This document shows positions 295-45,060 of a DNA stretch of 64,000 nt, in pieces. The position numbers were made by a program, and so were the translations under genes. How positions within the stretch are numbered: the first letter of the stretch is position 1; every line of letters begins with the position of its first letter. Source of the DNA: Eledone cirrhosa (lineage: Eukaryota); NCBI GenBank assembly GCA_964016885.1, contig OZ024744.1, positions 76,818,001-76,882,000 of the forward strand, given 5' to 3'. The notes below the pieces were generated by a model. The model was not told the origin of the DNA. It made no database searches and saw only the letters and a list, made by a program, of their open reading frames with translations.

Positions 295-3200
295 CCGTAT
301 TCAGGATCGGAAGTGTAAACGTGCGTGGCTTCAGCTCGGTTTGGAAGCAGGGTCACTTGCTTAACGACCTCAGGTCACTAAACATAGATGTGGTGGCATC
401 AGCGAGACGAGAATCTCCGAAACGCAAGCTTTCGCACCGATCTTCGACGGTTACGAGGTGTATGCCTCTCCGAGCCGTCCGGGAGCGGGGGGCGTAGTGG
501 CTGTGTTGTTTAGGGAAGGCTTGGGTCTCGCCATACGGACCATCCTCCTGAACCCAGAAGGTAAGTCGGTGGTGCTGGACTTAAGCGGCACCGAAGGCAA
601 CGCTTTCAGGCTAGTAGCCGTCTATGCCCCAATAGGGGCAGGACGGCCAGATTTCTTCAGACGTCTAGAGACCTTTCTTGGAACGTCCCGCTCTTTAGTG
701 TTAGTGGGCGACTGGAACGGTATCTTGGATGCACGTTGGGATTGTGTGGGGCTAGTGGATAGGGGAGGAGGGTTCAAGAGCCCACCAACCTGCTCAGACG
801 TTTTGAACTGTCTGGCAGGTATCGACTGGATCACCTGAATGTGCCAATGTGGACATGGACAAACCGCATCGGGTCGTCCAGATCGTATCTCGATAGGGTA
901 TTCTGCAGAGAACTAGATAAGGCTAGTATAAGTTGTCCACAATTTAAAATAGTCGACTAGACAGACCCCAAATTTGTGATCTGTGAGATCGACATAGACA
1001 GACTTCATAGACAAGGGACTGGTTACTGGAAGCTGAATACGTCTTTCCCGGTGCGCAAAGCCTACAGAGACCGGATTAGCGTATTAGTTAAGCGGACTTT
1101 GACGGGTGCGGTCGTCAACAACAGGTGGTTTTTCGCCCTGAAAAAGGCAATTAAAGTAGAGTCGATTAGGTTTAGCAAAGGACTAGTGATAGAGGAAAAA
1201 AGAGTAGAGGGAGAGCTAGTCAGAAAGCTAGAAGAGGCGTTTAGGACAGGCATCGCAACCGACGTGCTTGCGGCGAGATTGACACTCGACCAATTCTTCA
1301 ACGCAAAACGCGAATGCTGCATTGTCAGAGCTAGAGCGCGTGCTCTGAAACACGAGGGGACAAAAGCCGTCCAATGGGCTCGGGTGGCAGAGGCGCGACG
1401 TGGCAATAAAGCCACAATGCGGTCTTTATCTGACCAAAACGAGCGCGTGTTGCTCGAACCCGAGCAGATGTGTGAAGCTTTTCAGCAGCACTTTGCTGAA
1501 CTGTTCGGGAGCACCGGCGGGCCGGGGCGGGGTATGGATTTCAGTGCATACCTCGACGGACTGCCTCGGCTCTCGACGACCGCAGCACAGTGTTGCGGAA
1601 AGCCAATAACACCCAGTGAAATACGGGAAGCGATGGCTAACTGCACGAGGGGTAAATCGCCAGGTTTGGATGGTCTGTCCTAAGAGCTTTGTGCATTTAT
1701 GCCAGACTTGTTCGGTGACCTCTTGGCAGACGTCTACTGCAACTGGCAGCAGAACGGGAGCATTCCCAGTTTTGTGAGCCCGGGAGCGGTGGCGCTGCTG
1801 AGAAAAGACCCGAACAAGGGGGATGTTATCGATAACTTCAGGCCCATAACTCTGCTAAACCCAGAGTTCAAGATTTTGGCCAAGGTGTTAGCAACGAGGT
1901 TAGCGCTTGTCGTCAATGGTCGGGTGGGAGAGGCGCAGACATGCGCCATTCCGGACAGATCCATACACGACAACCTCCATCTCATGCAATACATCATAGA
2001 GAAGGTGGTTAAGGAACCAGGCACGGGTGGGGGCCTGATCAACTTGGATCATTTCAAAGCATTCAATAGGGTCGACCATCGTTATCTGGCGGCGGTCCTC
2101 GAGGCGGCCGGTTTCGGGCTCGTTTTCAGGGTTTGGATCGCTGCGATGTACAGCGACATCTGCTCAGTTGTGAGGGTGAACAGTCACCTGTCGCAGCCGT
2201 TCAGCATCATGCGCTCGGTCCGCCAGGGTTGTCCCCTCTCGTCCCTCTTGTACGTATTGACTCTAGAGCCGTTACAGCGCAAACTGGAGCGATGAGGGGC
2301 GTCCCACGCGAACTAGGATGCGCGAAATCCGAGTCGGCTTACGCCGACGACGTAACCGTTGTGGTTTCGAGCACCACACACGTCCAGATGCTCGGCACCG
2401 CTCTCAAGGAATACGAAGCGGTGACAGGAGCAAAGATAAACCAGGAAAAGTCGGTGGGCTTGCAGCTCGGCACCTGGAGAGGCAAGTCCATGCCGTCCGA
2501 CAGCGTCGTGGGGCGTTGGACGGACGGGCCGGTTAAATTGCTCGGGATCTGGTTCGGACTGGAGCGAGGTGACGAGCAAGGTGGCCTCCTCCATAACCCA
2601 GAAATGGGCCGAGAGGAAGCTGTCCCTGAAAGGCCGGGCGGAGTTGGCGAATGGGTACATCGCATCCGTCATCTGCTACCGCCTCACCGTCATCCCTTGC
2701 CCCGGCCCAACTCTCACCAAAAAGGAGCGCCTCCTCTTTCGCTTTTTGTGGAAGGGACGCGCTCCCATGGTCAGACGATCCATCTGCTGTCAACACCCGT
2801 TGTGTGAGGACTGGGCATGCCATGGCTGATGATGCGCAAACATGCGCTGAGTCTGTGACATCTCTGGTGCTTCCTTGACGGTGAACAGGTGTGGTCGCCG
2901 TTCGCCAGGCACGTTTTCGCACAGCTCGTCTCCTTGACGGAGCTGCAGTCCTGGGTCAGGAAAAGACCGAGGGATGGCTCTTGGTTACTGGAATGTCCCC
3001 AGGCGCTCACTGCCCTCTGCCAGCTGGGCACCAGTATCGGTGGAACATCCATCTCGGCGTTCTATAGAGGACTAGTGGAGGAGAAGTGCGACGACGTTCT
3101 CGGAGAGATCCTGGGCGTCGAAGAAGATCAGCTGTTTGCTCTCTTCCGGAGAACTTTCAGCCTAGGGCCTATGGATAACTTCCAAAAATCCCTGGCCTGG

Positions 3201-3686
3201 TAGTGCTACCGGGGAGCGCTGCCGGTTCAACATAAGCTCTACAGGCACGGAAGTGCCGTCAGCCGAGCCTGTCCGAGATGCGCGCAGAGTGACGAAACCG
3301 TCGTGCACGCACTCGTTCAGTGCCCGAGCATTGCTGACTTGTGGCGCTATGTCGAACAGTTGCTGTCGCGTGTAGGACTGATCCTGTTATCGACTGAGTC
3401 CATTGTGCAGATGGTCTCGCCGTCTTCCTTCGAGGAGGAAGGGCAGGCGGTTTTCATCTGCCTGGTAGCCATGGCGAAAGAGATTGTGTGGTGGACAAGG
3501 TTGAAAGGGTTAAAGACCGATACTTTCCTCTTCGGCGAATCCCTAATTAACTTCTTCAAGTTTCACTTGACGAGGAAAATCAGGGTGGAGAGGCAAGTGC
3601 TGCCTTCTAGCAAGTTTGTTGAAAGGTGAGTGAATGTAGCGAGAATGGTCCGAGTGAACGGGACCGCTCTAAATATACGCCTGTAG
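291..3686 (+). pseudogene. Tx1 ORF2 (endonuclease-reverse transcriptase), disrupted by several frameshifts and stops
   Basis: ORF fragments 255-497, 458-838, 976-1683, 1699-2295, 2133-2807, 2569-2829, 2889-3203 and 3303-3629 tile the protein encoded at 7464-10883. Confidence 0.93.
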
Positions 3687-3982
3687 TTTGAGAAATGGAA
3701 AAATTGAGAGAGGGCGCTTGCCCTGGTGGTCAGGGTGGCCGTGGTATTTTTTGTGGGTTTCGCCACGAGTAACCCTCGGAGGTTTCCCCCGTATTGTGGA
3801 ATTTTTCATTGTTTCAATTTTCATTTTTATTGTTTATATATATATATATTTCTATGTCTTTTTCTTTTTCTATATAAATAATAAAAATCTTTACACGAAC
3901 AAAACCCACATCGTACCGTCCTGTACCGTCCTGTGCCGTCTCTAATGTTTTTCTTGATGTCAGCTCTTGTGATCAATAAAAA

Positions 3983-5120: not shown

Positions 5121-5352
5121 TTATTATTATTATTATTGAATGCCATGGTTGACGGAGGCTCGGCTCTGTAAGGTATAGTAATTTTTAACCGTTAAAACAA
5201 TTGTAAATTGTTTAAAACTTGAACCAAATTGTTGATAAAGACACCCTCCTCCTCGTGAGAGGGGTCTTTCTGTCCGTTATTTGGCCCTTCGGGGTTAAAT
5301 AACCAGTTATTGGGGTTTTGTACCCAAAATTTCATTTTAAACAAAAAACAAC

Positions 5353-7428
5353 ATGGCTACGAAAAAGAAATTTCATACGTCACTCCCACTCATTCCGTCT
5401 TCTTCTTCCTCAATCATCACTACAGCAGAGAGAAGATTGTCTCTCTCCCTCCCTTCTTTAAATGTGTCTCTCTCCCTCCCTTCTCTTTCGCAAGTGACGA
5501 AAGAAAAGAAAAGTCTCGTGCAAAGCGTGCAAGGTTTCTCCACGACGACGACGACAGCGACGAAACAGGTGTGCGGGAAATACGAAAACCCAGTTCATTC
5601 GTCTGACGTCAGGAATAATAGCAGTAGCAGCCGTAATAACAACAGCAACAGTGACAATGAAAACAACAGTAGCAGCCGCAACAGCATCACCAGCAACACC
5701 AACAACAACCACAGCAACAGCGGCGGAGGCAGTAGTCGTAGTACCTGCAGCAACAACAAAAGTACCAGCAGCTCTGACGGCAACAACAATAGCAGAGAAA
5801 AACCAATCTCATTTGCAGGTATTGCGAAAAACTTGGAAACAATCCTCATAACAAATGAGGAATTAGAGGAAGCGAAGAAGATGGTGACAAAGAACGGACA
5901 CCGAGCAATCTGCAAGGCAGCGGAAAATTTTTTCGAAACCCAAGAGCACTGTACGGTCACGTACCGTACAGTAAGTACAAAATCCCGTAGGGTGGAAAGA
6001 GCCACAGAGGCCCAAATACAAAAAGCCTTGGGGTCTGTGTGGCAGCGGAAAACGCACATCACCCGAGGCAAAAAATATGCCACCGTAGACGTACTTTTTG
6101 CCACACCCCAGGAGGCAAAAGCCCAATCAGTAGTGACCCTAAGGAGCGAGGAAATGGTGTTGGTGCCCTCCTACTGCGGGCAAAAAATTGTGAGGGTCAA
6201 ACTGACCCACGTCCCCCCCCCCCCCCCCGGAATGACCCCTTCTTGGCTGGCCGCGTCTGTCCTCGTCGGAATCGAGGACAAAACAACTGTACTGCAAGTA
6301 CAGAAAAAAGTAAGAGAAGATTGGGTCGGCTCCTCCATTGAGATGCTAATCCAAACCAACCAGGAGTGCATCGAAGCTATCCCGGATGTGATAGACTTCG
6401 ATAACGGCACTCAACTGCCCATAAGTGTTGAGGGCAAACGCCCGAAATGCTTTCGCTGTGGATCGAAGACTCACCTCAGGGCCTTCTGCAACGAGAAGAC
6501 CCTGAGAAAGGAGAAAACCCCCCTCCTTCCGAATCCGGCTCCACGGCTACCAGCAACAGGACAAGCGGCAACCAGGAACGATAGGCCCGTGGCACCCATA
6601 CCCACTCCACGGAAATCAAAAACAGCAGCAGCAGTGGAAATATTAACAACAACAACAGCAATACCAAATGCAGCTGCAACAGAGACTCCAGTGCAAACAT
6701 CACCAACAACAACAAGTGAAAGAGTGGAGCTGGTACCCCTCCCCGACCTCACAGAATCAGACATGGAGTGTGAGGTGGGAGAGGGATGGCAAAAGGTCGT
6801 AAGAAGGCACAAACGCAGAAGCAGCGCATCGTCGCCTTTGAAAAGGGAGGAAAGAAATGAGGAAAGGGTAAAGTCTACTGCAAAGAGACCCACAGCAGCA
6901 ACAACACCAACACCATCACCACCCACACTAGCACCACCATCACCACCGGCGACAACCCCACCGCCAACAACACCTTCAACACCACCACCACAAGCACCAA
7001 CATCGCAAACACAACAACAAAACACACACACCCAGCAACAACGACAAGAAAATAGCAGAACCACACCCCATCCCCAGAAAAACAAATGCACGGCAATAAA
7101 TACACACAACAAGAAACTAATGACTTACATAATTGAACACACAGACATTTCACAACAGGACTACATAATACCAGCACCAATCAAAACGCCAACTAACATA
7201 AGACTGCTAAAAATAGCACAGAAACAATACACAAATATTAAAACGAAATTCCCCAACGCAGTTGGTGATTTCAGGGACCTAGGAGGAACCATCAATCGAA
7301 GAATATACTCAGACATTCTCTTAGAAGAGCCGACGACCAGCCGAAGGGACGATTCAACGGTCCCTTCACCAGACGATCAAGTGAAAAGGGATGTAAAAAC
7401 CATCCCTCCTCTACCAAAAGTACGGTAA
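5353..7428 (+). CDS. Tx1 ORF1 gag-like nucleic-acid-binding protein (691 aa)
   Basis: Uninterrupted ORF. Single CCHC knuckle CFRCGSKTHLRAFC (6448-6489), S/N-rich and P/T-rich low-complexity regions, and a C-terminus conserved with copy A. Confidence 0.92.
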   Translation: MATKKKFHTSLPLIPSSSSSIITTAERRLSLSLPSLNVSLSLPSLSQVTKEKKSLVQSVQGFSTTTTTATKQVCGKYENPVHSSDVRNNSSSSRNNNSNSDNENNSSSRNSITSNTNNNHSNSGGGSSRSTCSNNKSTSSSDGNNNSREKPISFAGIAKNLETILITNEELEEAKKMVTKNGHRAICKAAENFFETQEHCTVTYRTVSTKSRRVERATEAQIQKALGSVWQRKTHITRGKKYATVDVLFATPQEAKAQSVVTLRSEEMVLVPSYCGQKIVRVKLTHVPPPPPGMTPSWLAASVLVGIEDKTTVLQVQKKVREDWVGSSIEMLIQTNQECIEAIPDVIDFDNGTQLPISVEGKRPKCFRCGSKTHLRAFCNEKTLRKEKTPLLPNPAPRLPATGQAATRNDRPVAPIPTPRKSKTAAAVEILTTTTAIPNAAATETPVQTSPTTTSERVELVPLPDLTESDMECEVGEGWQKVVRRHKRRSSASSPLKREERNEERVKSTAKRPTAATTPTPSPPTLAPPSPPATTPPPTTPSTPPPQAPTSQTQQQNTHTQQQRQENSRTTPHPQKNKCTAINTHNKKLMTYIIEHTDISQQDYIIPAPIKTPTNIRLLKIAQKQYTNIKTKFPNAVGDFRDLGGTINRRIYSDILLEEPTTSRRDDSTVPSPDDQVKRDVKTIPPLPKVR

Positions 7429-7463
7429 GTGGTCTTTCCCATCTTTTCCACCCTATTTTAAAC

Positions 7464-10400
7464 ATGACCTCACTCAGAATAGGCAGCATAAATGCGCGTG
7501 GCTTGGGGTCGTCATGGAAGCAGGGTCACCTGCTCAACGACCTCAGGTCACTAAACATAGATGTAGTGGCCATCAGCGAGACCAGAATCTCCGAAGCACG
7601 GGCCTTCGCACCGATCTTCGGCGGCTACGATGTGTACGCATCTCCCAGCCGTCCTGGATCCGGTGGAGGAGTTGCTGTGCTTTTTCGGAGAGGTTTGGAT
7701 CTCGCCATACGGGCCATCTTCCTGGACCCAGAGGGTAAGCTGGTGGTGCTGGACGTGACCAGCGGAGACGGGCAAGCTTTCAGGCTAGTGGCCGTCTATG
7801 CCCCGACAGGAGCAGGGCGGCCTGATTTCTTCCGGCGTCTGGAGACCTTTCTTGGAACGTCTCGCTCTTTAGTGTTAGTGGGCGACTGGAACGGGATCTT
7901 AGATGCACGCTGGGACTGTGTGGGATTAGCGGATAGGGGTGGAGGGTGCAAGAGCCTCACCAACCTGCTCAGGCGTTTTGAACTGTCTGACAGGTACCGA
8001 TTGGATTTCCCGAATGTGCCAATGTGGACTTGGACAAACCGCATAGGGTCATCCAGATCATATCTAGATAGAGTATTTTGTAGGGAAATAGATAGGTCTA
8101 GCATAGGCTGTCCACAATTCAAGATAGTCAGCTACACGGACCACAAATTCGTGATCTGTGTGCTTGACTTAGATAGGCTTCATAGACGAGGACCCGGCTA
8201 CTGGAAGCTAAACGCGTCCTTACCAGCGCGCAAGGCCTACAGAGACCGGATTAGCGAACTAGTTAAGCGGGCGTTGACGGGGGCCATCGTCAACAACAAG
8301 TGGTGGTTTGCTCTGAAAAGAGCGATTAGAATAGAATCGATTAGGTTTAGTAAGGCTTTAGCAATAGAGAAAAATAGAGCAGAGGGAGAACTAGTAAGAA
8401 AATTAGACGAGGCGCTTAGCAAAGGCATTGCGACCGACGTGCTTGCGGCGAAATTGGCCCTTGACCAATTCTTCAATGCAAAGCACGAAGGCTGCGTTGT
8501 CAGAGCTAGGGTGCGTGCTCTCAGACACGAGGGGACGAAAGCCGTTCAATGGGCCCGAGTGGCGGAGGCGCGTCGTGGCAACAAAGCCACGATCCGGTCT
8601 TTGGTGGACCACGACGGGCGCATGCTACTCGATCCCGGGCAAATGTGTGAAGCTTTTCAGCGACACTTCGCTCAGCTGTTCGGGGGCAGCGGTGGGCCGG
8701 GTAGAGGGATGGACTTTAGTGTCTACCTCGACGGACTGCCGCGGCTCTCGGCCACTGAGGCGAAGTGTTGCGAAAAGCCGATAACAGCCGCTGAAGTAAG
8801 GGAGGCAATGACTGGCTGCACAAGGGGTAAATCGCCTGGTTTGGATGGTCTGCCCTATGAACTTTACGTACAGATGCCAGACTTGTTCGGAGGCCTCTTG
8901 GCGGACGTCTACTGCAACTGGCAACAGAACGGGAGAATTCCCAGTTCTGTGAGCCGAGGAGCGGTGGCACTGCTGAGAAAGGATCCGAACAAGGGGGATA
9001 ACATAGACAATTTCCGGCCCATAACTCTGATAAACACAGAGTTCAAGATTTTGGCCAAGGTGCTAGCAAAGAGGTTGGCGCTTGTCGTTGGTGGTCTGGT
9101 GGGAGAGGCGCAGACATGCGCCATTCCCGACAGATCCATCCACGACAACCTCCACCTCATGCGATACATCATAGAGAGGGTAGCTAAGGAACCTGGCACG
9201 GGTGGGTCCTTGATCAATTTAGATCAGTCGAAATCTTTCGATAGGGTCGACCATCGTTACCTAGCGGCAGTCCTGAGGGCGGCTGGCTTTGGGCCCGTCT
9301 TCAGAGGCTGGATCGCTGCCATGCACAGCGACATCTGCTCTGTGGTGAGAGTGAACGGTCACCTGTCGGAACCGTTCAACATCATGCGCTCGGTCCGCCA
9401 AGGATGTCCCCTCTCGTCCCTCTTGTACGTATTGACTCTCGAGCCATTACTGCACAAACTGGAGACGTTGAGGGGAGTCCCGCGCGAACTAGGATGCGGA
9501 AGATCCGTGTCAGCATATGCGGACGATGTCACCGTAGTGGTGTCGAACGCCAAACACATCGAGGCGATCGGCACTACACTAAGAGAATACGAAGCGGTGA
9601 CAGGAGCAATGATCAACCAGGAAAAGTCAGTGGGCCTGCAGCTCGGCACCTGCAGAGGCAGGTCCATGCCGTCCAACAGCGTCGTCGGGCGCTGGACGGA
9701 CGGACCGGTTAAATTGCTAGGGGTCTGGTTTGGTCCGGACCTCCAGACGGACAAAAACTGGGACGAGGTGACGAGCAGGGTGGCTTCTCTCACCCAGAAA
9801 TGGGCGGAGAGGAAGCTATCCCTGAAAGGTCGAGCGGAGGTGGCTAACGCGTACATCGCGTCTGTCATCTGCTACCGCCTGACCGTCGTACCTTGTCCTA
9901 AGCCTCGCCTGACTGCGCTGGAGCGTTTGCTCTTTCGCTTTTTGTGGAAGGGACGTGCTCCGATGGTCAGGCGGTCCATCTGTTGTCAACACCCGCTACG
10001 TGGAGGGCTGGGCATGCCGTGGCTGATGATGTGCAGGCACGCGCTCAGGCTACGACATCTCCACCTCTTCCTCGACGGTGATCAGGTGTGGTCGCCGTTT
10101 GCTAGGCGCGTATTTCCCCAGCTCGTTTCCTTGACGGAGCTGCAGTCCTGGGTCAAGCGAAGACCGAGAGGGAGCGCCTGGAGACTGGAATGTCTTCAGG
10201 CGCTCACAGCCCTCGACCAATCGGGCAATGTGATCGGTGGAAACTCCACCTCGGCGTTCTATAGAGGATTAGTGGAGGGTAAGAGCGACGACGTACTTGG
10301 GGAAACTCTAGGCGTCGACGAAAATCAACTAGCCAATCTCTTCTGAAGAACTTTCGGGCCAGGGCCTATGGACAACTTCCAGAAATCTCTGGCCTGGCAG

Positions 10401-10883
10401 TGCTACCGAGGAGCCTTGCCAGTTCGGGATAAACTCTACAGGCATGGAGGTGCCGTCAGCCGGGCATGTCCGAGATGCGCGCAGGGCGACGAAACCGTCC
10501 TGCACGCACTCGTCCAGTGTCCGAAAATTGCTGACTTGTGGGTTTATGTTGAACACCTGCTGTCGCGTTTAGGACGGATCCAGCTATCATCTGAGTCCAT
10601 CGTGAGGATTTCCCCGCCCTCCTCCTTTAGCCGGGAAGGGCAGGCAGTTTTTATCTGTCTGGTGGCCATGGCGAAAGAGATAGTATGGTGGACACGTTTG
10701 AAAGGGCTGAAGACGAGCACTTACCTCTTCGGTGATGCTCTGATTGACTTTTTCAAATTTCATTTGAAAAGGAAAATCAGAGTAGAGAGGGAAGTGCTCT
10801 CTTCCCAGCATTTTGTTGAAAGATGGGTGAGAGAAGCAAGAATGTCCCGAGTGAAAGGGCCTACTCTGAGTATATATCTGTAA
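7464..10883 (+). pseudogene. Tx1 ORF2 APE endonuclease + reverse transcriptase + C-terminal Zn motif; one in-frame TGA at 10344-10346
   Basis: ORFs 7464-10346 (960 aa) and 10368-10883 are in the same frame. Motifs: NARG, SETR, GDWN, YLDR, TDH, KSPGLDG, LDQSKSFDRV, RQGCPLS, YADD, GGLG, CPRC...H...C. Copies A and B have sense codons (CGG, GGA) at the TGA. Confidence 0.95.
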
Positions 10884-11819: not shown

Positions 11820-12020
11820 GTGTGTTTGTATGTGTGTGTGTCTTTGTGTGTGAGTGTGTCTCTGTGTGTGTGTGTCTCTGTGTATGTGAGCGTTTCTGTG
11901 CAGTGTGACTGTGTGTCTCTGTGTGTGTCTCTGTGTGTGTGTGTCTATGTGTGGTGTGTCTGTGTCTTTGTATGTGTGTGTGTCTGTGTGTTTGTGTGTG
12001 TTTGTGTGTGTGCGTGTGTG

Positions 12021-12052
<32 letters not shown>

Positions 12053-12290
12053 CAGTTTTTTCAACGTTTAGGGATTGATGTGTTTGATGCTGTATAAGTA
12101 GGTGTGTATGCACATGTTCATATAGATTCACACACATAGACACACATACACACATACCTACATACATGCAGGCACAAACATATACTCATATATATATGTA
12201 TTTATGCGTGTGTGTGGTTGTATGCATGTGTGTGGGTATATGCGTGCGTGTATATACATATATGTGTGTGTATGTATATATATATATATA
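11820..12290. repeat. (TG)n/(CA)n/(TA)n compound microsatellite
   Basis: Directly visible. Confidence 0.9.
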
Positions 12291-12405
12291 GTAATAAAAG
12301 GAATTCCAACTTTGTCTGATTTACTTGTTTTATTTACAATCCTTTAAAAATATAACCGTATTAGAATAAAATGGTATGGTAGAATATTAAATGTTAAGTG
12401 TTAAT

Positions 12406-12444
12406 TGAACAAGTACTTTCATGCTTTCGCAATCTTCAGGTTCA
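12406..12444 (-). ncRNA. Minimal type I hammerhead ribozyme
   Basis: Minus strand: ugaac CUGAAGA u ugc-GAAA-gca u GAAA guac UU guuca. Stem I ugaac/guuca, GNRA-capped stem II, palindromic stem III AGUACU. Confidence 0.8.
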
Positions 12445-12533
12445 CATTCTGTGGTGACAGTCAAGTTTGTAATTTTCAACTGTTGAAATTTTCGACAATT
12501 GAAAATTGCAAACTTGACTGTCACCACACATTA

Positions 12534-12572
12534 TGAACCTGAAGATTGCGAAATCATGAAAGTACTTATTCA
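12534..12572 (+). ncRNA. Minimal hammerhead ribozyme, mirror copy with two stem mutations
   Basis: tgaac CTGAAGA ttgcgaaatcat GAAA gtac TT attca. Confidence 0.65.
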
Positions 12573-12737
12573 ATTAACACTTAACATTTAATATTCTACC
12601 ATACTATTTCATTCTAATACCATTATAAATTTTAAAGGATTGTAAATAAAACAAGTAAATCAGACAAAGTTGGAATTCCTTTTATTAATATAATCTTCTA
12701 TACACAATCACACACACCCGTGTATATTTAACTCTCA

Positions 12738-12829
<92 letters not shown>

Positions 12830-13134
12830 GTATATACATATGTATAGACATATATATATACACACACACACACACACAGATATTTATATTTATATATGTG
12901 TGTATATATATATACATCTTCACATACACACATATATATATACTTACATATATATATGTATATCACGATAAATTATCGGAGCCATAGACTCTTGTTATTC
13001 CCTGTCAATAATGTGCTCAAATGAAAAGGAATCCTGAGCTCTTTAAATACAATATGTTGAAAAGGTAACACACTAGCGAGAGATAGTGCGCCATCAATAA
13101 TACAGGGAAAACCACCAGTGTATGGAATCTATAA

Positions 13135-24994: not shown

Positions 24995-27900
24995 ACTCCA
25001 GCATTGACTAAACTAATCCAAACCATTGAAACAGCAATGCTCCAAAAGCTGAACCCAATCTACGAGATATCCACTCAGTGAAAAACACCCTATTCAATAT
25101 ATGGACTCAAAAGCGCACATCTCGCAAATTCGCATTTTGGAATCTCCTAAAAAATAATGGCAAGGCAGATATATATGAAAAGTGGCTAAACTCTACCCCA
25201 ATCATCCTCCCCAAAAAACTCCAAATAAAACCCATCCCCAATGAACCAGAAAACCAACAAAAACCTATGGAAAGATGGCCTTAGAAAAATTTAAAATAGA
25301 AATAGAACTCTTGCGGTTAAGAGCCAACTCCAAAGAAGAAAAATTCAAGTCACTCGACCAACAGATGGAAACAGAAATCTCAAGACAGTCTGAAGGCCTA
25401 CTCTATGAAAAAACTTTAAAACTTTGGAAAGAAAATTGTGAGGATGAAGAACTAACATCCCTCCAGCGATGGGAAAAAAACGCCACCTAGTTCAACAACT
25501 ACGAAATGGGTTTCAAAAATGAACACCTTACAGATAACCCATTTTTAAAACAAGCTAAAACTCACACACCATACTCACAACAAATAACAAAAAAGGTAAC
25601 AAAACGTCCAACATAACCCCAGCAAAACTATGACGATAATCCCAGAATCCATAGACAAAACTATAACCCTACTAAAAAAAAACGAATGTTCCCCAACACA
25701 AGACAGGACTCGATCCGCAGATCACAACCCACACAAAACCTATTCCAAAACCGTAGACCCTAACCCACACAGAACCTGTTCCAAAATCGTAGATCCCAAC
25801 CCACACAAAGGAACAAAATTTACGACCCGGACCATCAACAAACCGAACCTCAATACGTCCGAAAATTTCTATACAACTTCTATACAACAAGGGAAATACC
25901 ATTAGATATAATAATACCCAAAATCATTTTTTAGACCAAGGCTACAGGTGGTACAAACCGATTTAAAAAAAACGAAAATAATCAACCTTTCAAATACAAA
26001 CTTCTCAGCCCAACAAATTAAAATTCTCTCCAAAGGACTGAAATTCACACCATCACCACAATACTCTAACCTCAATGAGATAAATGACGACATCTCACAC
26101 TTCTGTAGAAAATTACGTCTTACAAAAGAAATTTTTTGACAAGGAGAATAACGATCAATCAATTGTACGGAATAAAAGCAGCTACAACCCAACAAAGGGC
26201 AGGAACTGAGTTCTGGACAAATTTTGTGACCACATAGCAACTTTCCCATACCATGAACTACCGCAACCTAAACCCAAACCCAACACGAGTCGAAGGGAAT
26301 GGGCGATTATCCATGAACTAAAAAACAATACTGACATTGTAATTAAGGAAGTGGACAAGGAAAGTACTATCGTCATTATGGATGCTGAACAATATAAAAA
26401 TGCTATGTTCTCTCTCTTACAAGACACTAACTACTATGAACGAGTAAAAAACTACCAGCAATCAAAAACGATGACCAGATTAAACACATTCATTTGTCGA
26501 TACCTAAAAAGGAACGCGATTATTTAACACATTTTGAATCCAAAACAGCAACCTTTACGGACTTCCGAAGATCCACAAGTGTAAAATAATTAACGATGCC
26601 TCAACCTGCGTGAACACACAATACCCCACTGACCTTAAATTAAGACCAATTGTAGCGGGCCCACAATGTGAAACACACAGACTAAGCAGCTTTATAGACA
26701 TACTACTAAAACCAATACCATATCTCAAACACATACCAAGCCTTGTAAGAGACGATCTGGACCTCTTAAACCACCTCCCCAAACATGTCAACAACGACAC
26801 TATTATTGTGTCTTTCGATGTGTTGAATCTCTACACAACGATCCCACACCAATACGGACTAGAAGCAATATGATTCTGGCTAGAGAAATATCCCAATGAG
26901 ATACCTGACAGAATAGAGAAAAGCTTCATCACCGAGGGATTAAAATTTATTTTACAGAACAACTTTTTTGATTTCGATGGTAACACTTACAAGCAAATAT
27001 CGGGGACTGCGATGGGTACAAAAGTCGCCCCAACTGATGCTAAGTTAGTCATAGCATACTTGGAAGTTCAGGTATATGAACACTCCAAATTAAAATACGG
27101 ATTGAACTTCCACAAATATTTATCAGAGAATTGGAAACGCTACTTGGATGATTGTCTTATTCTTTGGTCTCACACACTCGACCAACTGAATGATTTCAAC
27201 AATTTAATTAACGGCATCAATAACCACATCCAATTCACAATGGAATACAGCTAAGATCAACTCCCATTTCTGGACATCTTAATCATAAAAAAGACACAAA
27301 TATTGAAACTGACATACACTACAAACCAACAGATTCCAAACAATACCTGCTATTCACCTCTAACCATCGAAAGCATACGAAGACGAACATCCCTTTTCAC
27401 CTAGCAAGAAGAATTTGCACAATTGTCTCCAATTATGAAACGCGAAATAAAAGACTTCAAGAATTAAAGAAAATTCTGCTCGAAAGACAGTACCTACTAT
27501 TACTAATAAATAAGGAAATAGAAAAGGCTAAAGCAATAGGCATTGATGAATTACGAAAACAGAAACAAATTCAAGGTACGTCCAATATTCTATCATATAT
27601 CTCACCACACAACCCAAGAAATGCGGAAGCATACAACATTATTCACAAGTACATTCCACTATTAAAACAAGACCCAAGAATGGAAAAAGCTCTTGAAACA
27701 CACAAAATAATCAAAAGCAAAAGACAACCGAAATCACTAAAAACATTACTCACTAATACCAAATTACCTACCACAAACCCACAACCAACTGTCAAAAATG
27801 TGGTCGCTCTAATTGTGGAACCTGCACTCACCTCATTAAAGGCAACATGGATTCATTTCAATCAGGACAATATTTTGTTGTAAAAAATCACTTCACTTGC

Positions 27901-28195
27901 TCATCAAAAAATCTAGTTTATACCATTAAATTTTAAAATGCAATGAAGATTATATAGGACAAACTAAACTCACACTCAAAAACAGAATGACAATTCATCG
28001 CCAACAATTACGAGATCCAACCACGAGACAGATACCAGTAGGTGCACATCTAGACATATGCGCAAGCCATAAGACACCCAAATTCCAAGCCTTCCCATTT
28101 TATCTTTAAGCTGACAATACAACAGAACAAATACGAATAAATAAGGAAAATATGTTTATTCAAAAATATAGACCAACATTAAATATAGTTTAATA
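24995..28195 (+). mobile_element. Penelope-like retroelement (Neptune-type), degraded: N-terminal region, RT, GIY-YIG endonuclease
   Basis: Broken frames give IINLSN...LSKGLKFTP, IVIKEVDK, YGLPKIHK, LRPIVAG, VSFDVLNLYT, GTAMGTKVAP, WKRYLDDC, LPFLD, and FTCSSKNLVY...YIGQT...RMTIHRQQ. Begins at (TA)n. Confidence 0.9.
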
Positions 28196-28199
28196 TACA

Positions 28200-28600
28200 T
28201 TATGTTAACACCATAACATACTAACCATCCAAACAGACACACACACACGTAACACTTTCTATATTCGAAAATAAAAACCAGAGCTAAATAAACCTTAACA
28301 TACGTTAATACTCTAACACCTTAACATGCTAACCATACCCCCCCCCCTGTTACACACACAAATAACTCCCTCCCCCATTTCTACTAACAGCATCATTTTC
28401 CTACACACACACATGCGCACACAAATATATATTATCTCCATCTTAACATGCTAACCATACTCCCACACACACATACACACACACATATAACAGCCATACA
28501 CACACACACACATAACACCCATACTCCCTCCCCCACTTCTACTAATAGAATCATTTTCCTACACACACACAGACACACACGAGCACACAAATAAAAATAC
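28200..28600 (+). repeat. Imperfect tandem blocks in the PLE 3' region
   Basis: taacat(a/g)ctaaccat at ~28215, 28322 and 28444; ctccctcccc..ttctactaa.ag.atcattttcctacacacac twice. Confidence 0.7.
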
Positions 28601-28989
28601 ATATCTCTAGTTTCTTTATTTCAATAGAAAGTCTGAATTTTGACACCTCAGCACAACAGCCATACTCACTGAACCAGAACAATTCTCCCCATCCCTTTTT
28701 TCTTGACCATTATCTTTTGTTTGGCACAAAATTCTCTAAATGGCTACAAAAAATTCCCAAATACGGGCGCGAAATTTAATGTAACAGTCATAATTTCATT
28801 TATACCCAATCAAATTACATTTATAAAATTTAATATGACAGTCATAAATTCATTTATAACCAATCAAATTACATTTATAAAAAAAAAACTTTTGAGCTAC
28901 TTGTTTAAGTAAAAAGAAACTCAAACACAAACTGGCACGAAAGTTGATGTGCTTATTCACGTGACTGCATCAGCCAACCAAATTTCACT

Positions 28990-31130
28990 CATATATGAAA
29001 AAGCAATCTGAGCCCGCCCTGCTCCTTGTGGCTTCTGATGCAGACATCATGTCCGCCATCAGGTCCTTCCCAGCTAGCTGCTGCGGAGGTGTTGATGGTC
29101 TCCGACTAGGCCACCTCAAGGAGTTGACATCCCCCTCTCCGCTGAGGCCGGGCGCCGCCTTCTGAGTGCAATTGTGGCGCTCACCAATAGGCTCATTCAT
29201 GGTGCCCTCGACCCTTACGCCCGAGGCCTCTTTTTTGGGGCCAGCCTCACCGCACTCAGGAAGAAAGAGGGAGGCTCACGCCCAATTGCTGTGGGCAATG
29301 TCTTCCGGAGGCTGGCTACCAAGGTGATCTGCAAGTCCGTAACACACGAACTGGGTGAGGAGTTTAGTCCGGTGCAACTGGGTGTCGGCGTCTCTAGTGG
29401 CTGTGAGGGGGCCGCTCATGCAACCAGGCAGTTCTTCAACAGCTGCCCATCGGAACCGGCATCTAGGGACTCCAGGCACCTCATTATCAAGCTTGACATG
29501 AGGAATGCCTTCAACTCTTTAAGCCGGGATCATCTGCTCGAGACCTACCTCAGCCGAGCCCCCTCTGCCTACCCGTTGGCCTACCTGCCGTATGGAGCCC
29601 CGAGCATGTTCCTTGTTGCTGATACGGTCATACACTCGGCTACTGGGGTCCAACAGGGCGACCCTTTGGGATTCTTCCTGTTCGCCATTGGTATTGACCA
29701 CATTTCCAGGAGTATCACGGCCCCTCTCAACGTTTGGTATCTGGATGATGCTACGTTGGGCAGGCTCGTACGGACGGTCTGTCATGACCTTCAATCGGTG
29801 GTTGCTGCCCTGGCGGGAATCGGCCTCCAGGTCAACTCGGCCAAGTCGGAGGTGGTGAATGTCAGCTTCGATGCTGCGAGCTTTGCAGCCTCCGTCTTGG
29901 ACGTGCGGTCCCTTCTCCGCCAGGTTCAGGTGACCCCCAAAGAGGATGTCCTCATCCTCGGGTCACCGATCCACCCGCCGGCCATCCGCTCCACCATCAG
30001 GTCCAGGTTTCAACAGCTCCAGACTCTCACAAGCCGACTGGGCTTGATTGACGGTCACCCAGCTCTCTTTCTGCTGAAGAACTGCTTCGCCATGCCGAAG
30101 CTCCTCTATACACTCCGCAGCGCTCCGTGCTACACCCAGAGATCTCTCCTCTCTGACCTCGATACTTGTATCCGAGCAGCAGCCGAGGAGATATGCAACG
30201 TCAAGTTTGACGACATAGGGTGGCAACAGGCCACTTTACCTAGCCCAGTAGACGTCCCTCCTCCTTCTCCCCCTGTTGACGTCAAGTCCCCCCAAAGCAC
30301 TTGGGATGCCATCCGGTGCAGCTCGACCAGCACCGCCTTGCTTGTTTTCGTGCGGCCTCCAAGCCCTGCAGTGGTGCCTGGCTCCATGCCCTTCCCGCCT
30401 TCTCCACCGGCACGCAACTAGACAACCATAGCCTGCACATCGGCGTTTCCCTGAGGCTCGGCCTCCGGATCTACCAGCCACACCAATGTCGCTGCGGTTC
30501 CCCCGTGGACTCTTTCGGCCTCCACCCGCTTTCCTGTCGACACAGTGCCGGCCGAATTCCATGCCATGCTGCCCTAAACGAGGTCATTAAGCATGGCTTG
30601 GACGCTGCAGGCTTTCCTTCCCAGCTCGAGCCGGTGGGGCTGGATCGAGGGGACGGCAAAGGGCCAGATGGTATGACCATCTTCCCGTTCCGCAGTGGCA
30701 AACTCCTCGTCTGGGATGCCACTTGCACCGACACTTTCTGCAGCCGCAACCTGGTGCAGTCTGCAACTGACCCAGGTTCTGCTGCACGTCGGGCTGAGGG
30801 GACTAAACTCCTCAAATACCGGTCGCTCTCCGACAGGTTTGCAGTCGTACCCCTGGCAGTGGAGACTTCTGGTGTCTTTGGCCCCAGGGCTACCTCCTTA
30901 CTCACCACCATAGGCGCTGAGCTGGCCAGCCGCAGGTGTGAGCCCCGCGAGTTGGAGTGGATTTTCCAGCTCGTCTCCCTTGCCGTTCTCCGGAGAAACG
31001 CCTTCTCCATTCTGTCCGCCGAAAGTTTGTTATAATATCGTCTTTTTTAATGTATCATGGATTACGTTACTGATTAAATTCCCCATGATTGTTAAAGTGA
31101 AAACAATAAAACAAAATCTTATTTAAATAA
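28990..31130 (+). mobile_element. CRE-clade non-LTR retrotransposon (RT + restriction-like endonuclease), 5'-truncated with an internal deletion and frameshift
   Basis: RPIAVG, QLGVG, KLDMRNAFNSL, QQGDPLG, WYLDD, then CRCG...HPLSC, PDG, WDATCTDT, K..KY, PLAVETSG. The GGLG region expected after QATLP is missing (~30240). AATAAA at ~31105. Confidence 0.88.
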
Positions 31131-42465: not shown

Positions 42466-44052
42466 AAAGTTTTATTTAAAATTGTTGGGATACAAGTAAA
42501 TATTTTATAACTGATATAAAGCACTCGACAAGTTTTTGGAGTAGATATACGATATTAAATAAATGGAAACTATATTTGTAAAACCATATTTATTTCATTA
42601 TACATATTTCAGGGATACCAAATTAAAATATGGCATGCCTTCGTCAGATAAAATACAATATATAAACAGTTTTATAAATAATTTTGACGTACCCTATTAG
42701 AAGCGACCATTATTTTTGGAAGCTGTCTGGATAGTGAGATGTTTATAATTATTTTATTAGTTATAGTGTTAAGCACAGTTAGAAAAAAGACGGAGAGAAA
42801 GAAAAAACGGAGAGAGAGAAGGAGAGAGAAAAAGAAGGAGAGAGAGAAAAAAGGAAGATATATATATAAATAGATAGGAGGAAATGAAAAAGAAAAAAGA
42901 AAGAAAGAAGAAAGGCAAAAGAAAGCAACAGAGAGATAATAATTCATCATACAGATAGAGAAACTCAAGAGAGAGGAAGTACTATATAGAGAGAAGAGGA
43001 TACAGTGACAACTTTACGTTATGTCATATTAAGTTGAATTAACAATTCATATGAAATGAATAATAAAAATGCAAATATCAATATTCATGAATGAGACATA
43101 GATATATAATATGAGAAAATAACATTGTTCAATAATGACCATATGTTTAGTTTAAAACTTGATACCAAAATCTGAGTTAAAACCTTCAAAAATTACCCTA
43201 TTTATAAAAATACGGATACATATAGGTATATATATATACACGCATATGTACGTTCTGAAAAAAGAAAAAAGAGAAAATTATGTCTACTCTAGTCAATAAT
43301 ATAGACATACAAATGATTTCACCTGATCACCTCTATACATTTCTTGTGTTATAAAAATTTCACAGTATATATACATAAAACATACGATTAATATTCATGT
43401 CCTCACATACATGATTACCGTTCATGTATTTAATATTATGCACATCTGCACCACACATCAACATATGCACACAGAACCATATACATATATATATGTATCT
43501 GCGTGAGTTTTCCAGCATCGTTATGCACATATACAGACATATATACGAACACATTAATAAACTCTATAAACCTTTTATATGCATGTTAATACACACAAAT
43601 GGCCTTTGTATAGAGATAATCAAATATCAATATATTAACACAGAAATATCAAAGCATTAAAATATCTTTAACATACTATAGAGTATCTCAAGCCAAAACA
43701 ATATGTTTCATATATTTATTATAGAAATCTATCCTACCTATATCTCAAACAAGATATTGCAAGGGTAGACATATGAAAGTTATTAGAAGCTATCAGAGTC
43801 AAAAAACAAATAAAAAACAAAAATTATTTAAAAGATTTAGAAGACCCAGTGATTCTACGGATGCCCTTATATTTAGTATAGAGATTTATCTTACGTAAAT
43901 TTTATTTAATACATTGGGAGCATATACATTTTAGAGTAGTTTATTATATCCGTGTTTATATTTCGGAAGAAAATTTAAAAAGAAAAAGGTGAAGGAATCA
44001 AATGATTTATCGTCAGGTTTCATATATTAACTAAATTTCTTAATTAATTATA

Positions 44053-44480: not shown

Positions 44481-45060
44481 TTATTTAATTGAATATTGTT
44501 TGGGTTATTATTGGTATTTTGGTTAGGTTTTAAATATCAGATTTAAACTAAACATATGGTCATTATTGAACAATGTTATTTTCTCATATTATATATCTAT
44601 GTCTCATTCATGAATATTGATATTTGCATTTTTATTATTCATTTCATATGAATTGTTAATTCAACTTAATATGACATGACGTAAAGTTGTCACTGTATCC
44701 TCTTCTCTCTATATAGTACTTCCTCTCTCTTGAGTTTCTCTATCTGTATGATGAATTATTATCTCTCTGTTGCTTTCTTTTGCCTTTCTTATTTCTTTCT
44801 TTATTCTTTTTCATTTCCTCCTATCTATTTATATATATCTTCCTTTTTTTCTCTCTCTCCTTTTTCTCTCTCCTTCTCTCTCTCCGTTTTTTCTTTCTCT
44901 CCGTTTTTTTCTTTCTCTCCGTCTTTTTTCTAACTGTGCTTAACACTATAACTAATAAAATAATTATAAACATCTCACTATCCAGACAGCTTCCAAAAAT
45001 AATGGTCGCTTCTAATAGGGTACGTCAAAATTATTTATAAAACTGTTTATATATTGTATT

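What the first reader, a model, noticed from the sequence alone, without database searches (positions are those of the whole stretch)
12292..12687. MITE-sized palindrome carrying a hammerhead ribozyme on each strand
Seen: a ~396-bp fold-back with almost no loop and no coding capacity, next to (TA)n. The left arm has an intact minimal hammerhead (minus, 12406-12444) and the right arm a mutated mirror copy. Known: Penelope pseudo-LTRs carry minimal type I hammerheads with palindromic stem III that can act as dimers, and PLE insertions often have inverted 5' ends. Inference: either an extreme truncation/inversion product or a non-autonomous 'fold-back retrozyme'. A transcript from either strand would compete between ribozyme folding and a ~190-bp dsRNA (ADAR or Dicer substrate).
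Basis: partly seen in the sequence, partly recalled or inferred. Interest (0 to 1): 0.75.

Follow-up and report, generated by a model that had tools for sequence, protein, structure and literature searches.

The report
Inverted Penelope retrotransposon ends with hammerhead motifs
The 396-base palindrome is two head-to-head copies of the last ~195 bases of a very abundant Penelope-like retrotransposon sitting in a (TA)n microsatellite, each arm carrying that element's minimal hammerhead-ribozyme motif; it is likely an inert by-product of one retrotransposition event, a structure already described for these elements.

Summary
Observation confirmed: 12292-12687 is a near-perfect palindrome (11-nt centre, z -37.8) flanked by (TA)n. 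It carries a complete hammerhead core on the minus strand at 12406-12444 and a twice-mutated mirror copy at 12524-12562.

[quoted passage not shown] All 29 of 29 coding copies examined carry the arm in sense, about 330 nt after the stop codon. A 25-mer from the arm occurs 7,245 times in the genome.

Head-to-head pairs are common, and at least 890 share this centre position. They are always 3'-ends-outward (18 pairs against 0 in the opposite order). The 42-nt "tail" sits on one side only (33 of 38 pairs; window 12688-12729). Centre fillers vary, and young pairs have near-identical arms. The pairs therefore likely form anew at insertion and are not copied as palindromic units or moved as DNA MITEs.

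The hammerhead motif is unlikely to be chance and sits where PLE hammerheads sit, but its helix II is weak and lacks G10.1-C11.1. Copy 5' ends cluster about 10-fold at the predicted cleavage site, which hints at cleavage in vivo.

This is known PLE biology and a new family member. Interest is modest.

The parts
12266..12291 (.). Left flank: (TA)n-rich microsatellite, the target remnant abutting the outer end of the left arm.
   Evidence: Nearly all aligned copies have (TA)n at this boundary.
12292..12483 (-). Left arm. An inverted copy of the last ~192 nt of the PLE (element sense = window minus strand). It has no tail.
   Evidence: It matches the 3' end of the PLE unit at 89-95% identity.
12406..12444 (-). 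Minimal type I hammerhead motif identical to the family's majority variant. Predicted cleavage lies between 12411 and 12410.
   Evidence: Sequence; descriptor and simulations; 40 of 71 arm instances are identical over this stretch. No Rfam match, but the Rfam controls also failed.
12484..12494 (.). Palindrome centre: an 11-nt filler (tgaaattttcg) that is itself a short zig-zag repeat of the arm's first bases.
   Evidence: The same long centre type is seen in L014, L027 and L005.
12495..12687 (+). Right arm. A sense copy of the last ~193 nt of the PLE, likely the primary target-primed copy.
   Evidence: (94.9% to PLE positions 2824-3058 including the tail).
12524..12562 (+). Mirror hammerhead motif, mutated at 12544 (helix II) and 12558 (position 1.1).
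   Evidence: a singleton variant among 71 instances.
12688..12729 (+). Conserved 42-nt PLE 'tail', present on this side only.
   Evidence: the tail is on one side in 33 of 38 head-to-head pairs. The only pair with tails on both sides is a pair of full-length units.
12730..12963 (.). TC-rich stretch followed by the (TA)n microsatellite: the right target flank.
   Evidence: TRF: period 2, 106.5 copies, 12751-12963.

Best explanation
The palindrome is two head-to-head, 5'-truncated copies of the 3' terminal ~195 nt (pseudo-LTR end) of an abundant Penelope-like retrotransposon in a (TA)n microsatellite, and it was likely laid down in a single retrotransposition event.

Shown here:
- The same arm forms direct pseudo-LTRs upstream of full-length copies.
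- Short copies mostly begin at one discrete position, the A/G of ACAGTTG.
- About half of all insertions are inverted pairs, always with 3' ends outward and with the 42-nt tail on one side only.

Inferred mechanism:
- The nuclease nicks the (TA)n target.
- The tailed arm (right, 12495-12729) is made by target-primed reverse transcription of a short RNA that starts inside the pseudo-LTR.
- The tail-less left arm arises either when the enzyme switches template at the RNA 5' end (snap-back), or when the second nick primes on the internal UAAUAUA stretch of a sister RNA (twin priming).

Each arm carries the element's minimal hammerhead motif in sense. In the family's RNA it would cleave after UU, likely as a dimer through the AGUACU palindrome.

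This copy is old: its arms differ by 6.2% and one motif is mutated. Any transcript would fold into a ~190-bp hairpin rather than a ribozyme. As a locus it is probably inert.
For: Parent element:
- Long copies continue past arm position 192 into sequence whose opposite strand encodes reverse transcriptase and GIY-YIG.
- An intact 728-aa ORF (P0001) hits RVT_1 (E 2.4e-6) and GIY-YIG (27.9 bits against a cut-off of 22.6) at its C-terminus.
- The own-genome protein search gave 13,566 first-look candidates. The 145 scored were 90-92% identical apart from the query's own locus, and many have 775-aa open frames.
- 29 of 29 coding loci carry the arm in sense about 330-340 nt after the stop codon; 16 have the tail and 13 do not.
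- Upstream direct pseudo-LTR copies and 4.2-kb tandem spacing were seen.

Abundance: an arm 25-mer occurs 7,245 times, against 0 for the reversed control.

Architecture:
- In the first 100 of those matches there are 18 (-,+) pairs within 2 kb, 0 (+,-) pairs within 2 kb and 0 same-strand pairs within 600 bp.
- 16 of 29 loci, and by my reading 12 of 22 structures, are inverted pairs.
- 18 of 29 tailed arms start at unit positions 3964-3974.
- 890 places have both arms meeting at that position.

Single event:
- The tail is on one side in 33 of 38 pairs, on neither in 4, and on both in 1; that one is a pair of full-length units.
- Partner arms differ by 3.5% on average against 4.5% for non-partners. 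The partner is the nearest neighbour for 12 of 42 arms, and three pairs differ by 1% or less while sharing private variants.
- Centre fillers vary, and the one-base centre occurs as both A and T relative to the tail.

Hammerhead:
- The only CUGANGA boxes in the 4.5-kb unit, on either strand, are the two in the arms.
- The descriptor hit rate in simulations is 0.077 per window.
- Head-to-head junctions just 3' of the predicted cleavage site number 37 places, against 3, 2 and 4 at three control positions.
- Symmetric junctions at AATT(78-81) number 17, against 0 at a control TTTAAA palindrome.
- Prefix-mismatch breakpoints number 23, 24 and 20 at positions 73-75, against 3 and about 4 at controls.

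Literature (text read): PMC8557442 describes PLE inverted 5'-truncated copies, a 30-40-bp tail at one end, (TA)n targets and hammerheads in pseudo-LTRs. PMC4209133 describes minimal PLE hammerheads, including pairs 100-700 bp apart on opposite strands. [quoted passage not shown]
Against: - For this particular copy the arms differ by 6.2%, no less than they differ from other copies. They also carry different variants of a variable 9-mer (cacattctg against cataatgtg). Two separate insertions in opposite orientation therefore cannot be excluded here.
- The template-switch or twin-priming step is inferred from anatomy, not observed.
- The discrete 5' end at A3/G4 is unexplained. A start site at the Inr-like ACAGTT is my inference. 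Upstream pseudo-LTRs of full-length copies mostly start further upstream, at 249 to more than 733 nt.
- Hammerhead helix II is only UGC/GCA flanked by U and U, with no G10.1-C11.1 pair, and helices I plus II are worth only -4.2 kcal/mol.
- Rfam gives no hammerhead match at E<=10.
- Within-family variation gives no covariation signal: 40 of 71 instances are identical and 26 of the remaining 27 variants occur once or twice.
- The breakpoint cluster spans positions 73-82 with no single-base peak in the prefix counts. A local reverse-transcriptase stop could produce it.
- No RNA data could be examined.
Confidence: 0.85

Rival explanations
1. A non-autonomous 'fold-back retrozyme': the palindrome is itself a transcribed master unit. 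Its hairpin RNA would be reverse-transcribed by the PLE enzyme, so palindromes spread as units. Copies with a short inner piece of the second arm would then be 5'-truncated copies of the palindromic RNA.
For: - 890 places share the same centre position, and about 70% of the first 50 listed have the same one-base centre.
- Four copies (L001, L014, L027, L005) share the same complex 11-nt centre.
- Partial second arms always comprise the part next to the centre (L005, L010, L011, L022, L025; L153). That is what 5' truncation of a palindromic template would give.
Against: - The one-base centre occurs in both mirror states relative to the tail (4 ctg and 5 cag).
- About 30% of centres have diverse fillers.
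- Young pairs have identical arms with private variants, so there is no inherited left/right difference.
- Many pairs have unequal inner breakpoints in either arm.
- Solo arms with the same discrete 5' end are about as common as pairs (11 of 29; 7 of 22 by my reading).
- An RNA with a 190-bp perfect hairpin is a poor reverse-transcription template, and no promoter at the outer edge is evident.
Confidence: 0.08
2. Two independent insertions: a second short PLE copy landed in opposite orientation exactly at the 5' end of an older one, because PLEs favour (TA)n and pre-existing copies.
For: The window's arms differ by 6.2% and carry different variants of the variable 9-mer. PLEs are said to insert into or next to existing copies (PMC6765202, passage read).
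Against: - Orientation is exclusively head-to-head: 18 (-,+) pairs against 0 (+,-) pairs within 2 kb.
- Inner ends abut within -8 to +26 nt in 24 of 29 pairs.
- No short pair has tails on both sides (0 of 37), although 16 of 29 single 3' ends have one.
- Partner arms are on average closer to each other than to other arms.
Confidence: 0.06
3. A DNA-transposon MITE or foldback element whose long terminal inverted repeats merely resemble PLE sequence, moved by cut-and-paste into TA sites.
For: The size (396 bp), the near-perfect inverted arms, the lack of coding capacity and the TA-rich flanks would all fit a Stowaway-like MITE.
Against: - The arms are 89-95% identical to the sense 3' end of 29 of 29 coding PLE copies.
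- The unit is asymmetric, with the tail on one side.
- Solo arms and unequal arms abound.
- No transposase-bearing partner was met in any locus examined.
Confidence: 0.01

Closest known systems
Penelope-like element insertions with an inverted 5'-truncated copy, a one-sided 30-40-bp tail and a (TA)n target (Craig et al. 2021, PMC8557442, passages read; the earlier descriptions it cites were not read)
   Same: All of the following are seen here: a parent with reverse transcriptase and C-terminal GIY-YIG, direct pseudo-LTRs, an adjacent inverted 5'-truncated copy, a 42-nt tail at one end only, (TA)n flanks and a hammerhead motif in the pseudo-LTR. The protein has a C-x5-C-x2-C motif before GIY-YIG (read by eye), as that paper states for the Neptune and Nematis clades.
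   Different: Here both copies are cut down to the last ~195 nt, giving a MITE-sized near-perfect palindrome. This extreme form is a major product: at least 890 places. The 5' ends are discrete rather than scattered. Clade placement by phylogeny was not done.
Minimal hammerhead ribozymes of metazoan PLEs (Cervera & de la Pena 2014, PMC4209133, parts 1-2 of the text read)
   Same: Type I topology, CUGANGA and GAAA boxes, a short helix I (5 bp), a 1-bp helix III with a palindromic 4-nt loop (GUAC, so AGUACU can pair in a dimer), and a location in the pseudo-LTR on the sense strand. That paper also reports pairs of such motifs 100-700 bp apart on opposite strands in Schistosoma mansoni.
   Different: Helix II is 3 bp (UGC/GCA with a GAAA loop) rather than 6-8 bp, and the conserved G10.1-C11.1 pair is absent (U and U flank the helix). 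Activity is untested. A second PLE family in this genome (L107, L032) does have the canonical form, with an extra base after A9 and a GUCAC/GUGAC helix II.
Animal non-LTR retrozymes (bioRxiv 10.64898/2026.07.22.740005, abstract and section 14 read; PMC7229834, seen only in a search listing)
   Same: Short, non-coding, hammerhead-bearing sequences homologous to PLE pseudo-LTRs that outnumber their autonomous partner.
   Different: Retrozymes are head-to-tail tandem arrays that yield circular RNA. Here no same-strand neighbours lie within 600 bp among the first 100 of 7,245 matches. Copies are solo or head-to-head.
Twin-priming inversions of LINE-1 and hairpin (snap-back) second-strand synthesis by reverse transcriptases (recalled, no paper read)
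   Same: An inverted structure created during target-primed reverse transcription, with short fillers or microhomology at the junction.
   Different: L1 twin priming inverts a different, upstream part of the same RNA. Here both arms are the same 3' terminal segment.
MITEs and foldback DNA transposons
   Same: Size, inverted arms, no ORF, and a hairpin-forming transcript.
   Different: The arms are a retroelement's 3' end. The structure is asymmetric, arm lengths vary, and no transposase partner was found.

Membership tests
Penelope-like element (canonical, C-terminal EN+), pseudo-LTR fragment | The parent element encodes a reverse transcriptase followed by a C-terminal GIY-YIG endonuclease. 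| tested here: met
   In P0001 (728 aa), RVT_1 covers residues 251-392 (E 2.4e-6, 27.8 bits, just under the 29.6 cut-off) and GIY-YIG covers 640-726 (27.9 bits against a 22.6 cut-off). The nearest atlas clusters carry HTH_animal, DUF8422, GIY-YIG and RVT_1.
Penelope-like element (canonical, C-terminal EN+), pseudo-LTR fragment | The fragment is the element's terminal repeat: it lies at the 3' end in sense and is repeated directly upstream of full-length copies (pseudo-LTR, partial tandem). | tested here: met
   29 of 29 coding loci have the arm after the stop codon. L097 has a 249-nt upstream copy 100% identical to the downstream one. Tandem arrays have 4.2-kb spacing. Direct upstream copies were seen in 9 of the 14 upstream stretches (of 20 taken) that matched the 3' segment.
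Penelope-like element (canonical, C-terminal EN+), pseudo-LTR fragment | An adjacent inverted 5'-truncated copy, and a 30-40-bp tail at one end only. | tested here: met
   33 of 38 pairs have the 42-nt tail on one side.
Penelope-like element (canonical, C-terminal EN+), pseudo-LTR fragment | Clade assignment (Neptune, Nematis, Poseidon or Hydra) by reverse-transcriptase/endonuclease phylogeny. | not tested
   Only the C-x5-C-x2-C linker motif was read in P0001, and (TA)n targeting was seen. No reference sequences were available for a tree.
Hammerhead ribozyme, type I (PLE minimal form) | Core boxes CUGANGA and GAAA, and a UH cleavage site followed by the 3' strand of helix I. | tested here: met
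   UGAAC/GUUCA helix I, CUGAAGA, GAAA, and UU before G1.1.
Hammerhead ribozyme, type I (PLE minimal form) | Helix II closed by the conserved G10.1-C11.1 pair (6-8 bp in PLE forms). | tested here: not met
   Helix II is UGC-GAAA-GCA, flanked by an unpaired U on each side.
Hammerhead ribozyme, type I (PLE minimal form) | An extra nucleotide between A9 and position 10.1. | tested here: inconclusive
   A U follows A9, but a matching U precedes G12. The two can be read as a bulge pair or as a U-U mismatch.
Hammerhead ribozyme, type I (PLE minimal form) | A short helix III with a palindromic loop that allows a dimer. | tested here: met
   A15.1-GUAC-U16.1 reads AGUACU, which is self-complementary.
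Hammerhead ribozyme, type I (PLE minimal form) | A match to the curated Rfam hammerhead models. | tested here: inconclusive
   No hammerhead hit at the gathering score or at E<=10 on 481-nt and 71-nt slices. The same scan also missed the canonical PLE-type motif in L107 and the other motif family at window 45065, so the models are blind to this class.
Hammerhead ribozyme, type I (PLE minimal form) | Self-cleavage at the predicted site. | not testable with these tools
   There is only an indirect hint: copy 5' ends cluster at arm positions 73-82 about 10-fold over controls. No RNA runs were listed.
Animal non-LTR retrozyme | Head-to-tail tandem repeats of a hammerhead-bearing unit. | tested here: not met
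   There are 0 same-strand neighbours within 600 bp among the first 100 of 7,245 matches. No tandem arm arrays were met in the 119 loci from five own-genome searches and one fetch.
MITE / foldback DNA transposon | Symmetric terminal inverted repeats with a target-site duplication, related to a transposase-encoding element. | tested here: not met
   The tail is asymmetric, arm lengths vary, and the arms equal a retroelement 3' end. A TA duplication cannot be judged inside (TA)n.

The most novel reading that the evidence does not exclude
The pseudo-LTR end of this PLE is a self-contained ~195-nt transcription unit, running from an Inr-like ACAGTT start to the element's 3' end. Its short RNA, not the full-length RNA, is the main template the element's enzyme copies, so the genome is seeded with thousands of solo arms and ~400-bp perfect palindromes. 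The weak-helix-II hammerhead in that RNA does cleave in vivo, leaving a fossil record of copies that begin at G1.1. The palindromes in turn give hairpin RNAs that could feed siRNA silencing of the still-active family: a fold-back, pseudo-LTR-only relative of retrozymes.
Probability: 0.2. Interest if true: 0.6.

Novelty: new member of a known kind. Interest (0 to 1): 0.3.

Why it matters
The locus itself is ordinary: it is debris from an abundant retrotransposon, and annotators should not call such palindromes MITEs or microRNA precursors. Rfam's best matches here were generic miRNA hairpins.

Two things give it some wider use.
- This family has thousands of young copies and discrete copy ends. 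It offers a genomic read-out of which RNA ends a PLE enzyme copies, including a roughly 10-fold cluster at the predicted hammerhead cleavage site. Whether PLE hammerheads cleave in vivo, and what they are for, is still stated as open in the papers read (PMC8557442, PMC4209133).
- A motif with a 3-bp helix II and no G10.1-C11.1, if active, would widen the descriptors used to find PLE hammerheads.

Tried and rejected
- Rfam at the gathering score on the whole window found nothing. At E<=10 on 12250-12730 and on 12390-12460 there was no hammerhead, only generic miRNA-like hairpin hits such as MIR8007, which are rejected as artefacts of any long hairpin. Control scans showed that Rfam also misses the canonical PLE-type motif.
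- Hammerhead covariation within the family gave no signal: one variant dominates and the rest are nearly all singletons.
- A search for hammerheads near other GIY-YIG loci of the genome examined 30 loci. Three had descriptor hits: L127 (same family), L107 (a second family) and L108 (antisense, another motif). The other 27 had none. No cross-family alignment of this motif was possible.
- I looked for a hammerhead downstream of the second PLE ORF in the window (28150-29400) and saw none.
- I looked for another ribozyme or a type III hammerhead that could explain the main 5' end at ACAGTTG. None was found by eye or by Rfam.
- An own-genome DNA search with the young-subfamily arm returned nothing, because common words are skipped. 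This says nothing about abundance.
- The arm RNA alone is not unusually structured (z +0.9).
- The paper by Lunse et al. on dimeric PLE hammerheads is not held. It is known to me only from the reference list of PMC6765202.
- One literature search for PLE copies beginning at the hammerhead cleavage site returned 6 listings, none on this point judging by title and abstract. This does not show that the point is unpublished.
- The notebook of earlier findings holds nothing for this genome.

Full report
**1. The observation.**
The stretch 12292-12687 is a real, near-perfect palindrome. The repeat finder reports arms 12343-12488 / 12490-12635 (146 nt, 90% complementary, 1 nt apart) with an outer continuation. 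The 396 nt match their own reverse complement at 92.7%. As RNA they fold to -272.8 kcal/mol against -67.4 +/- 5.4 for shuffles (z -37.75). (TA)n-rich sequence flanks both sides, and no ORF of 90 aa or more lies inside.

The minus strand of 12406-12444 reads UGAAC-CUGAAGA-UUGC-GAAA-GCAU-GAAA-GUAC-UU|GUUCA. The mirror copy at 12524-12562 has two substitutions, at 12544 and 12558. What was missed is that the unit is asymmetric: a conserved 42-nt tail (12688-12729) and a TC-rich stretch follow the right arm only.

**2. What the arms are.**
A search of the window's own ~3.0-Gb genome with the left arm found many copies at 93-96% identity: 747 first-look candidates, 40 scored. They fall into full palindromes and single arms ending near position 192.

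Some single arms continue into ~840 nt of further conserved sequence. The opposite strand of that sequence holds reverse-transcriptase and GIY-YIG reading frames. [quoted passage not shown] Its nearest atlas clusters carry the domain set of Penelope-like elements.

The family is very large and recently active. There are 13,566 first-look candidates for the reverse-transcriptase segment, and the 145 scored are 90-92% identical to the query apart from the query's own locus. Many have 775-aa open frames, and some lie in 4.2-kb tandem and inverted arrays.

In 29 of 29 coding loci the arm lies in sense about 330-340 nt after the stop codon, with the tail in 16 and without it in 13. In L097 a 249-nt direct copy, 100% identical, sits just upstream of the unit. 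So the arm plus tail is the 3' terminal segment that forms the pseudo-LTR. The window's left arm is antisense on the + strand, which puts its hammerhead motif on the element's sense strand.

**3. How common the palindromes are and how they are built.**
An arm 25-mer occurs 7,245 times (reversed control 0). In the first 100 matches, which are ordered by coordinate, there are 18 (-,+) pairs within 2 kb. There are no (+,-) pairs within 2 kb and no same-strand pairs within 600 bp. Pairs are therefore always head-to-head with 3' ends outward, and there are no retrozyme-like tandem arrays.

A sample drawn with the last 155 nt contained 16 of 29 head-to-head pairs and 11 of 29 solo arms. In that sample, 18 of 29 tailed arms begin at one discrete place, unit positions 3964-3974. 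A coordinate-ordered sample gave 12 of 22 inverted structures by my reading. Genome-wide, 890 places have both arms meeting at that position.

**4. Amplified as a unit, or made anew?**
- Centres always lie at the same arm position, but their sequences differ. About 70% of the first 50 listed have a single central base, seen as A or T; the rest have diverse fillers of 3-13 nt. In the tail-oriented copies the one-base centre occurs in both mirror states (4 and 5). Other copies have duplications or tandem expansions at the centre, or unequal arms.
- Partner arms are closer to each other (mean 3.5%) than to other arms (4.5%). The partner is the nearest neighbour for 12 of 42 arms. Three pairs differ by 1% or less and share private variants.
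- The tail is on one side in 33 of 38 pairs and on neither side in 4. It is on both sides only in a pair of full-length units, although 16 of 29 single 3' ends carry it.

Together with the exclusive orientation, this says each pair is made in one asymmetric event. It is neither two independent insertions nor a copy of a palindromic master. The last option cannot be excluded for subsets that share a complex centre, such as L001, L014, L027 and L005.

The window's own copy is old. Its arms differ by 6.2% and carry different variants of a variable 9-mer, so for this one copy the single-event origin rests on the family pattern.

**5. Mechanism (inferred).**
The anatomy matches what is described for PLEs: 5' truncation, partial tandems, an adjacent inverted 5'-truncated copy, a 30-40-bp tail at one end and (TA)n targets (PMC8557442, passages read).

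I infer the following. The tailed right arm is the primary target-primed copy. The tail-less left arm comes from one of two routes. Either the enzyme switches template at the RNA 5' end and copies back, which fits copies whose second arm is only the 30-125 nt next to the centre. Or the second nick primes on the internal UAAUAUA stretch of a sister RNA, which fits pairs in which both outer ends are complete and the inner ends vary.

The discrete 5' end at the A/G of ACAGTTG is unexplained by any ribozyme. It resembles an initiator element, and PLE transcripts are reported to start inside the upstream pseudo-LTR (PMC6765202, passage read), so a start site is my inference. Against it, the upstream pseudo-LTRs of full-length copies mostly start further upstream, at 249 to more than 733 nt.

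**6. The hammerhead.**
The two arm copies are the only CUGANGA boxes in the 4.5-kb unit on either strand. A relaxed type I descriptor finds 0.077 hits per simulated window and none with a palindromic loop 3 plus a helix I of 5 bp or more. The real window has four hits.

Topology, boxes, the UH site, the short helix I, the AGUACU palindrome, and the pseudo-LTR and sense-strand position all agree with the minimal hammerheads of metazoan PLEs (PMC4209133). Helix II does not: it is 3 bp and lacks G10.1-C11.1, and helices I plus II are worth only -4.2 kcal/mol.

Rfam finds nothing. It also misses a canonical PLE-type motif from a second family in this genome and the other motif family in the window, so that negative result carries no weight. 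Within-family variation is uninformative.

**7. A hint of cleavage in vivo.**
Arm positions are numbered from the A of ACAGTTG, and cleavage is predicted between T73 and G74.
- Head-to-head junctions with both inner ends just 3' of that site occur at 37 places, against 3, 2 and 4 places at three control positions.
- Among those 37 junctions, by my parsing, G74 is the commonest arm start (about 20 of 74 arms), next to A78 (about 19). T76 is never used.
- Symmetric junctions at AATT(78-81) occur at 17 places, at the longer AAGTACTT palindrome just upstream at 4, and at a control TTTAAA palindrome at 0.
- Counts of copies whose three preceding bases all differ from the arm are 23, 24 and 20 at positions 73-75 (8 of the 23 are one variant). 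At controls they are 3 and 12, and 8 of the 12 are a 1-nt deletion variant.
- Individual cases start at or within one base of G74: L070, L139, L146 and L152. Two of these are the upstream pseudo-LTRs of full-length copies.

The cluster starts at the cleavage site and runs about 8 nt downstream. That is what cleaved RNA with slight trimming or microhomology use would give. However, the prefix counts show no single-base peak, and a local stop of the enzyme is not excluded.

**8. Surroundings.**
The locus lies in repeat-rich DNA. An apurinic-endonuclease/reverse-transcriptase LINE occupies 5341-10883. (GT)n lies at 11820-12052 and (TA)n at 12751-12963. A second, diverged PLE ORF lies at 26017-28184. 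Another hammerhead-like motif family occurs at 42647(-), 45065(+) and 54428(+); the first two sit in a head-to-head inverted repeat.

**9. Verdict.**
The structure is a known kind of PLE debris, here in an extreme, MITE-sized and very abundant form. The motif is a weak-helix-II member of the PLE hammerheads, and its activity is untested.

Interest is modest (0.3). The most novel reading not excluded is given separately: a pseudo-LTR-only transcription unit as the main template, cleavage in vivo, and hairpin-RNA consequences.

No RNA data were available.

Noticed in passing
window 42647 (-), 45065 (+), 54428 (+); inverted repeat 42542-43164 / 44535-45170: A second hammerhead-like motif family: UAUUUUAU-CUGA[C/G]GA-AGG...CCU-GAAA-UAUGUA-UA-AUGAAAUA, with an 8-bp helix I. 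Two copies sit on opposite strands in a 95%-identical head-to-head inverted repeat about 2.6 kb across. This is probably another PLE family's pseudo-LTR pair. Rfam does not recognise it.
   Followed up: partly
window 26017-28184 (+): A diverged PLE coding region, 34-57% amino-acid identity to P0001 over six tblastn pieces. No hammerhead motif was seen in the 1.2 kb downstream.
   Followed up: partly
window 5341-10883 (+): A LINE-type retrotransposon just upstream of the palindrome: Exo_endo_phos plus RVT_1 in a 1025-aa frame, and zf-RVT in the next frame.
   Followed up: partly
L107:980-1285 and L032:3109-3541: A second PLE-type arm family ending at (TA)n. It has a canonical minimal hammerhead: GUCA-CUGAAGA-G-GUCAC-AGAAUGU-GUGAC-GAAA-GAAC-UU-UGAC. 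In L032 it also forms a palindrome (arms 3109-3290 / 3356-3541) next to (TA)n. Its helix II loop shares CACAGAATGTG with the segment just 5' of the hammerhead in the family studied here, which hints that the two motifs are related by rearrangement.
   Followed up: partly
arm positions ~31-39; window 12445-12453 and 12515-12523: A hypervariable 9-mer, CA[C/T]A[T/A]T[C/G]TG, just 5' of helix I. It differs between copies far more than the rest of the arm, and it differs between the two arms of the window's copy.
   Followed up: no
L066:1480-2130: A palindrome whose two arms both carry the same ~55-nt foreign insertion. The pair was therefore formed from a template that already had the insertion.
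   Followed up: no
L070:~1655-1675 and L152:~1385-1417: Junction fillers of 17-18 nt that are near-copies of an arm segment 10-30 nt away (ACTTAACCTTTAATATT; ACATTTAATATTCTATCA). These are templated fillers and suggest repeated template switching.
   Followed up: no
window 12730-12750 and the same place in many loci: Between the 42-nt tail and the (TA)n flank there is usually a short (TC)n or (TCTA)n run. It may be part of the RNA's 3' end or may be made by slippage during priming.
   Followed up: no
L094:2330-3968 versus 7500-9188; L094/L097 beyond the arm: In two full-length loci the ~600-1000 nt after the 3' arm are homologous to each other and to the inverted upstream copy, yet they are not the element's 5' region. 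The element may have a longer 3' variant or a preferred repeat target.
   Followed up: no
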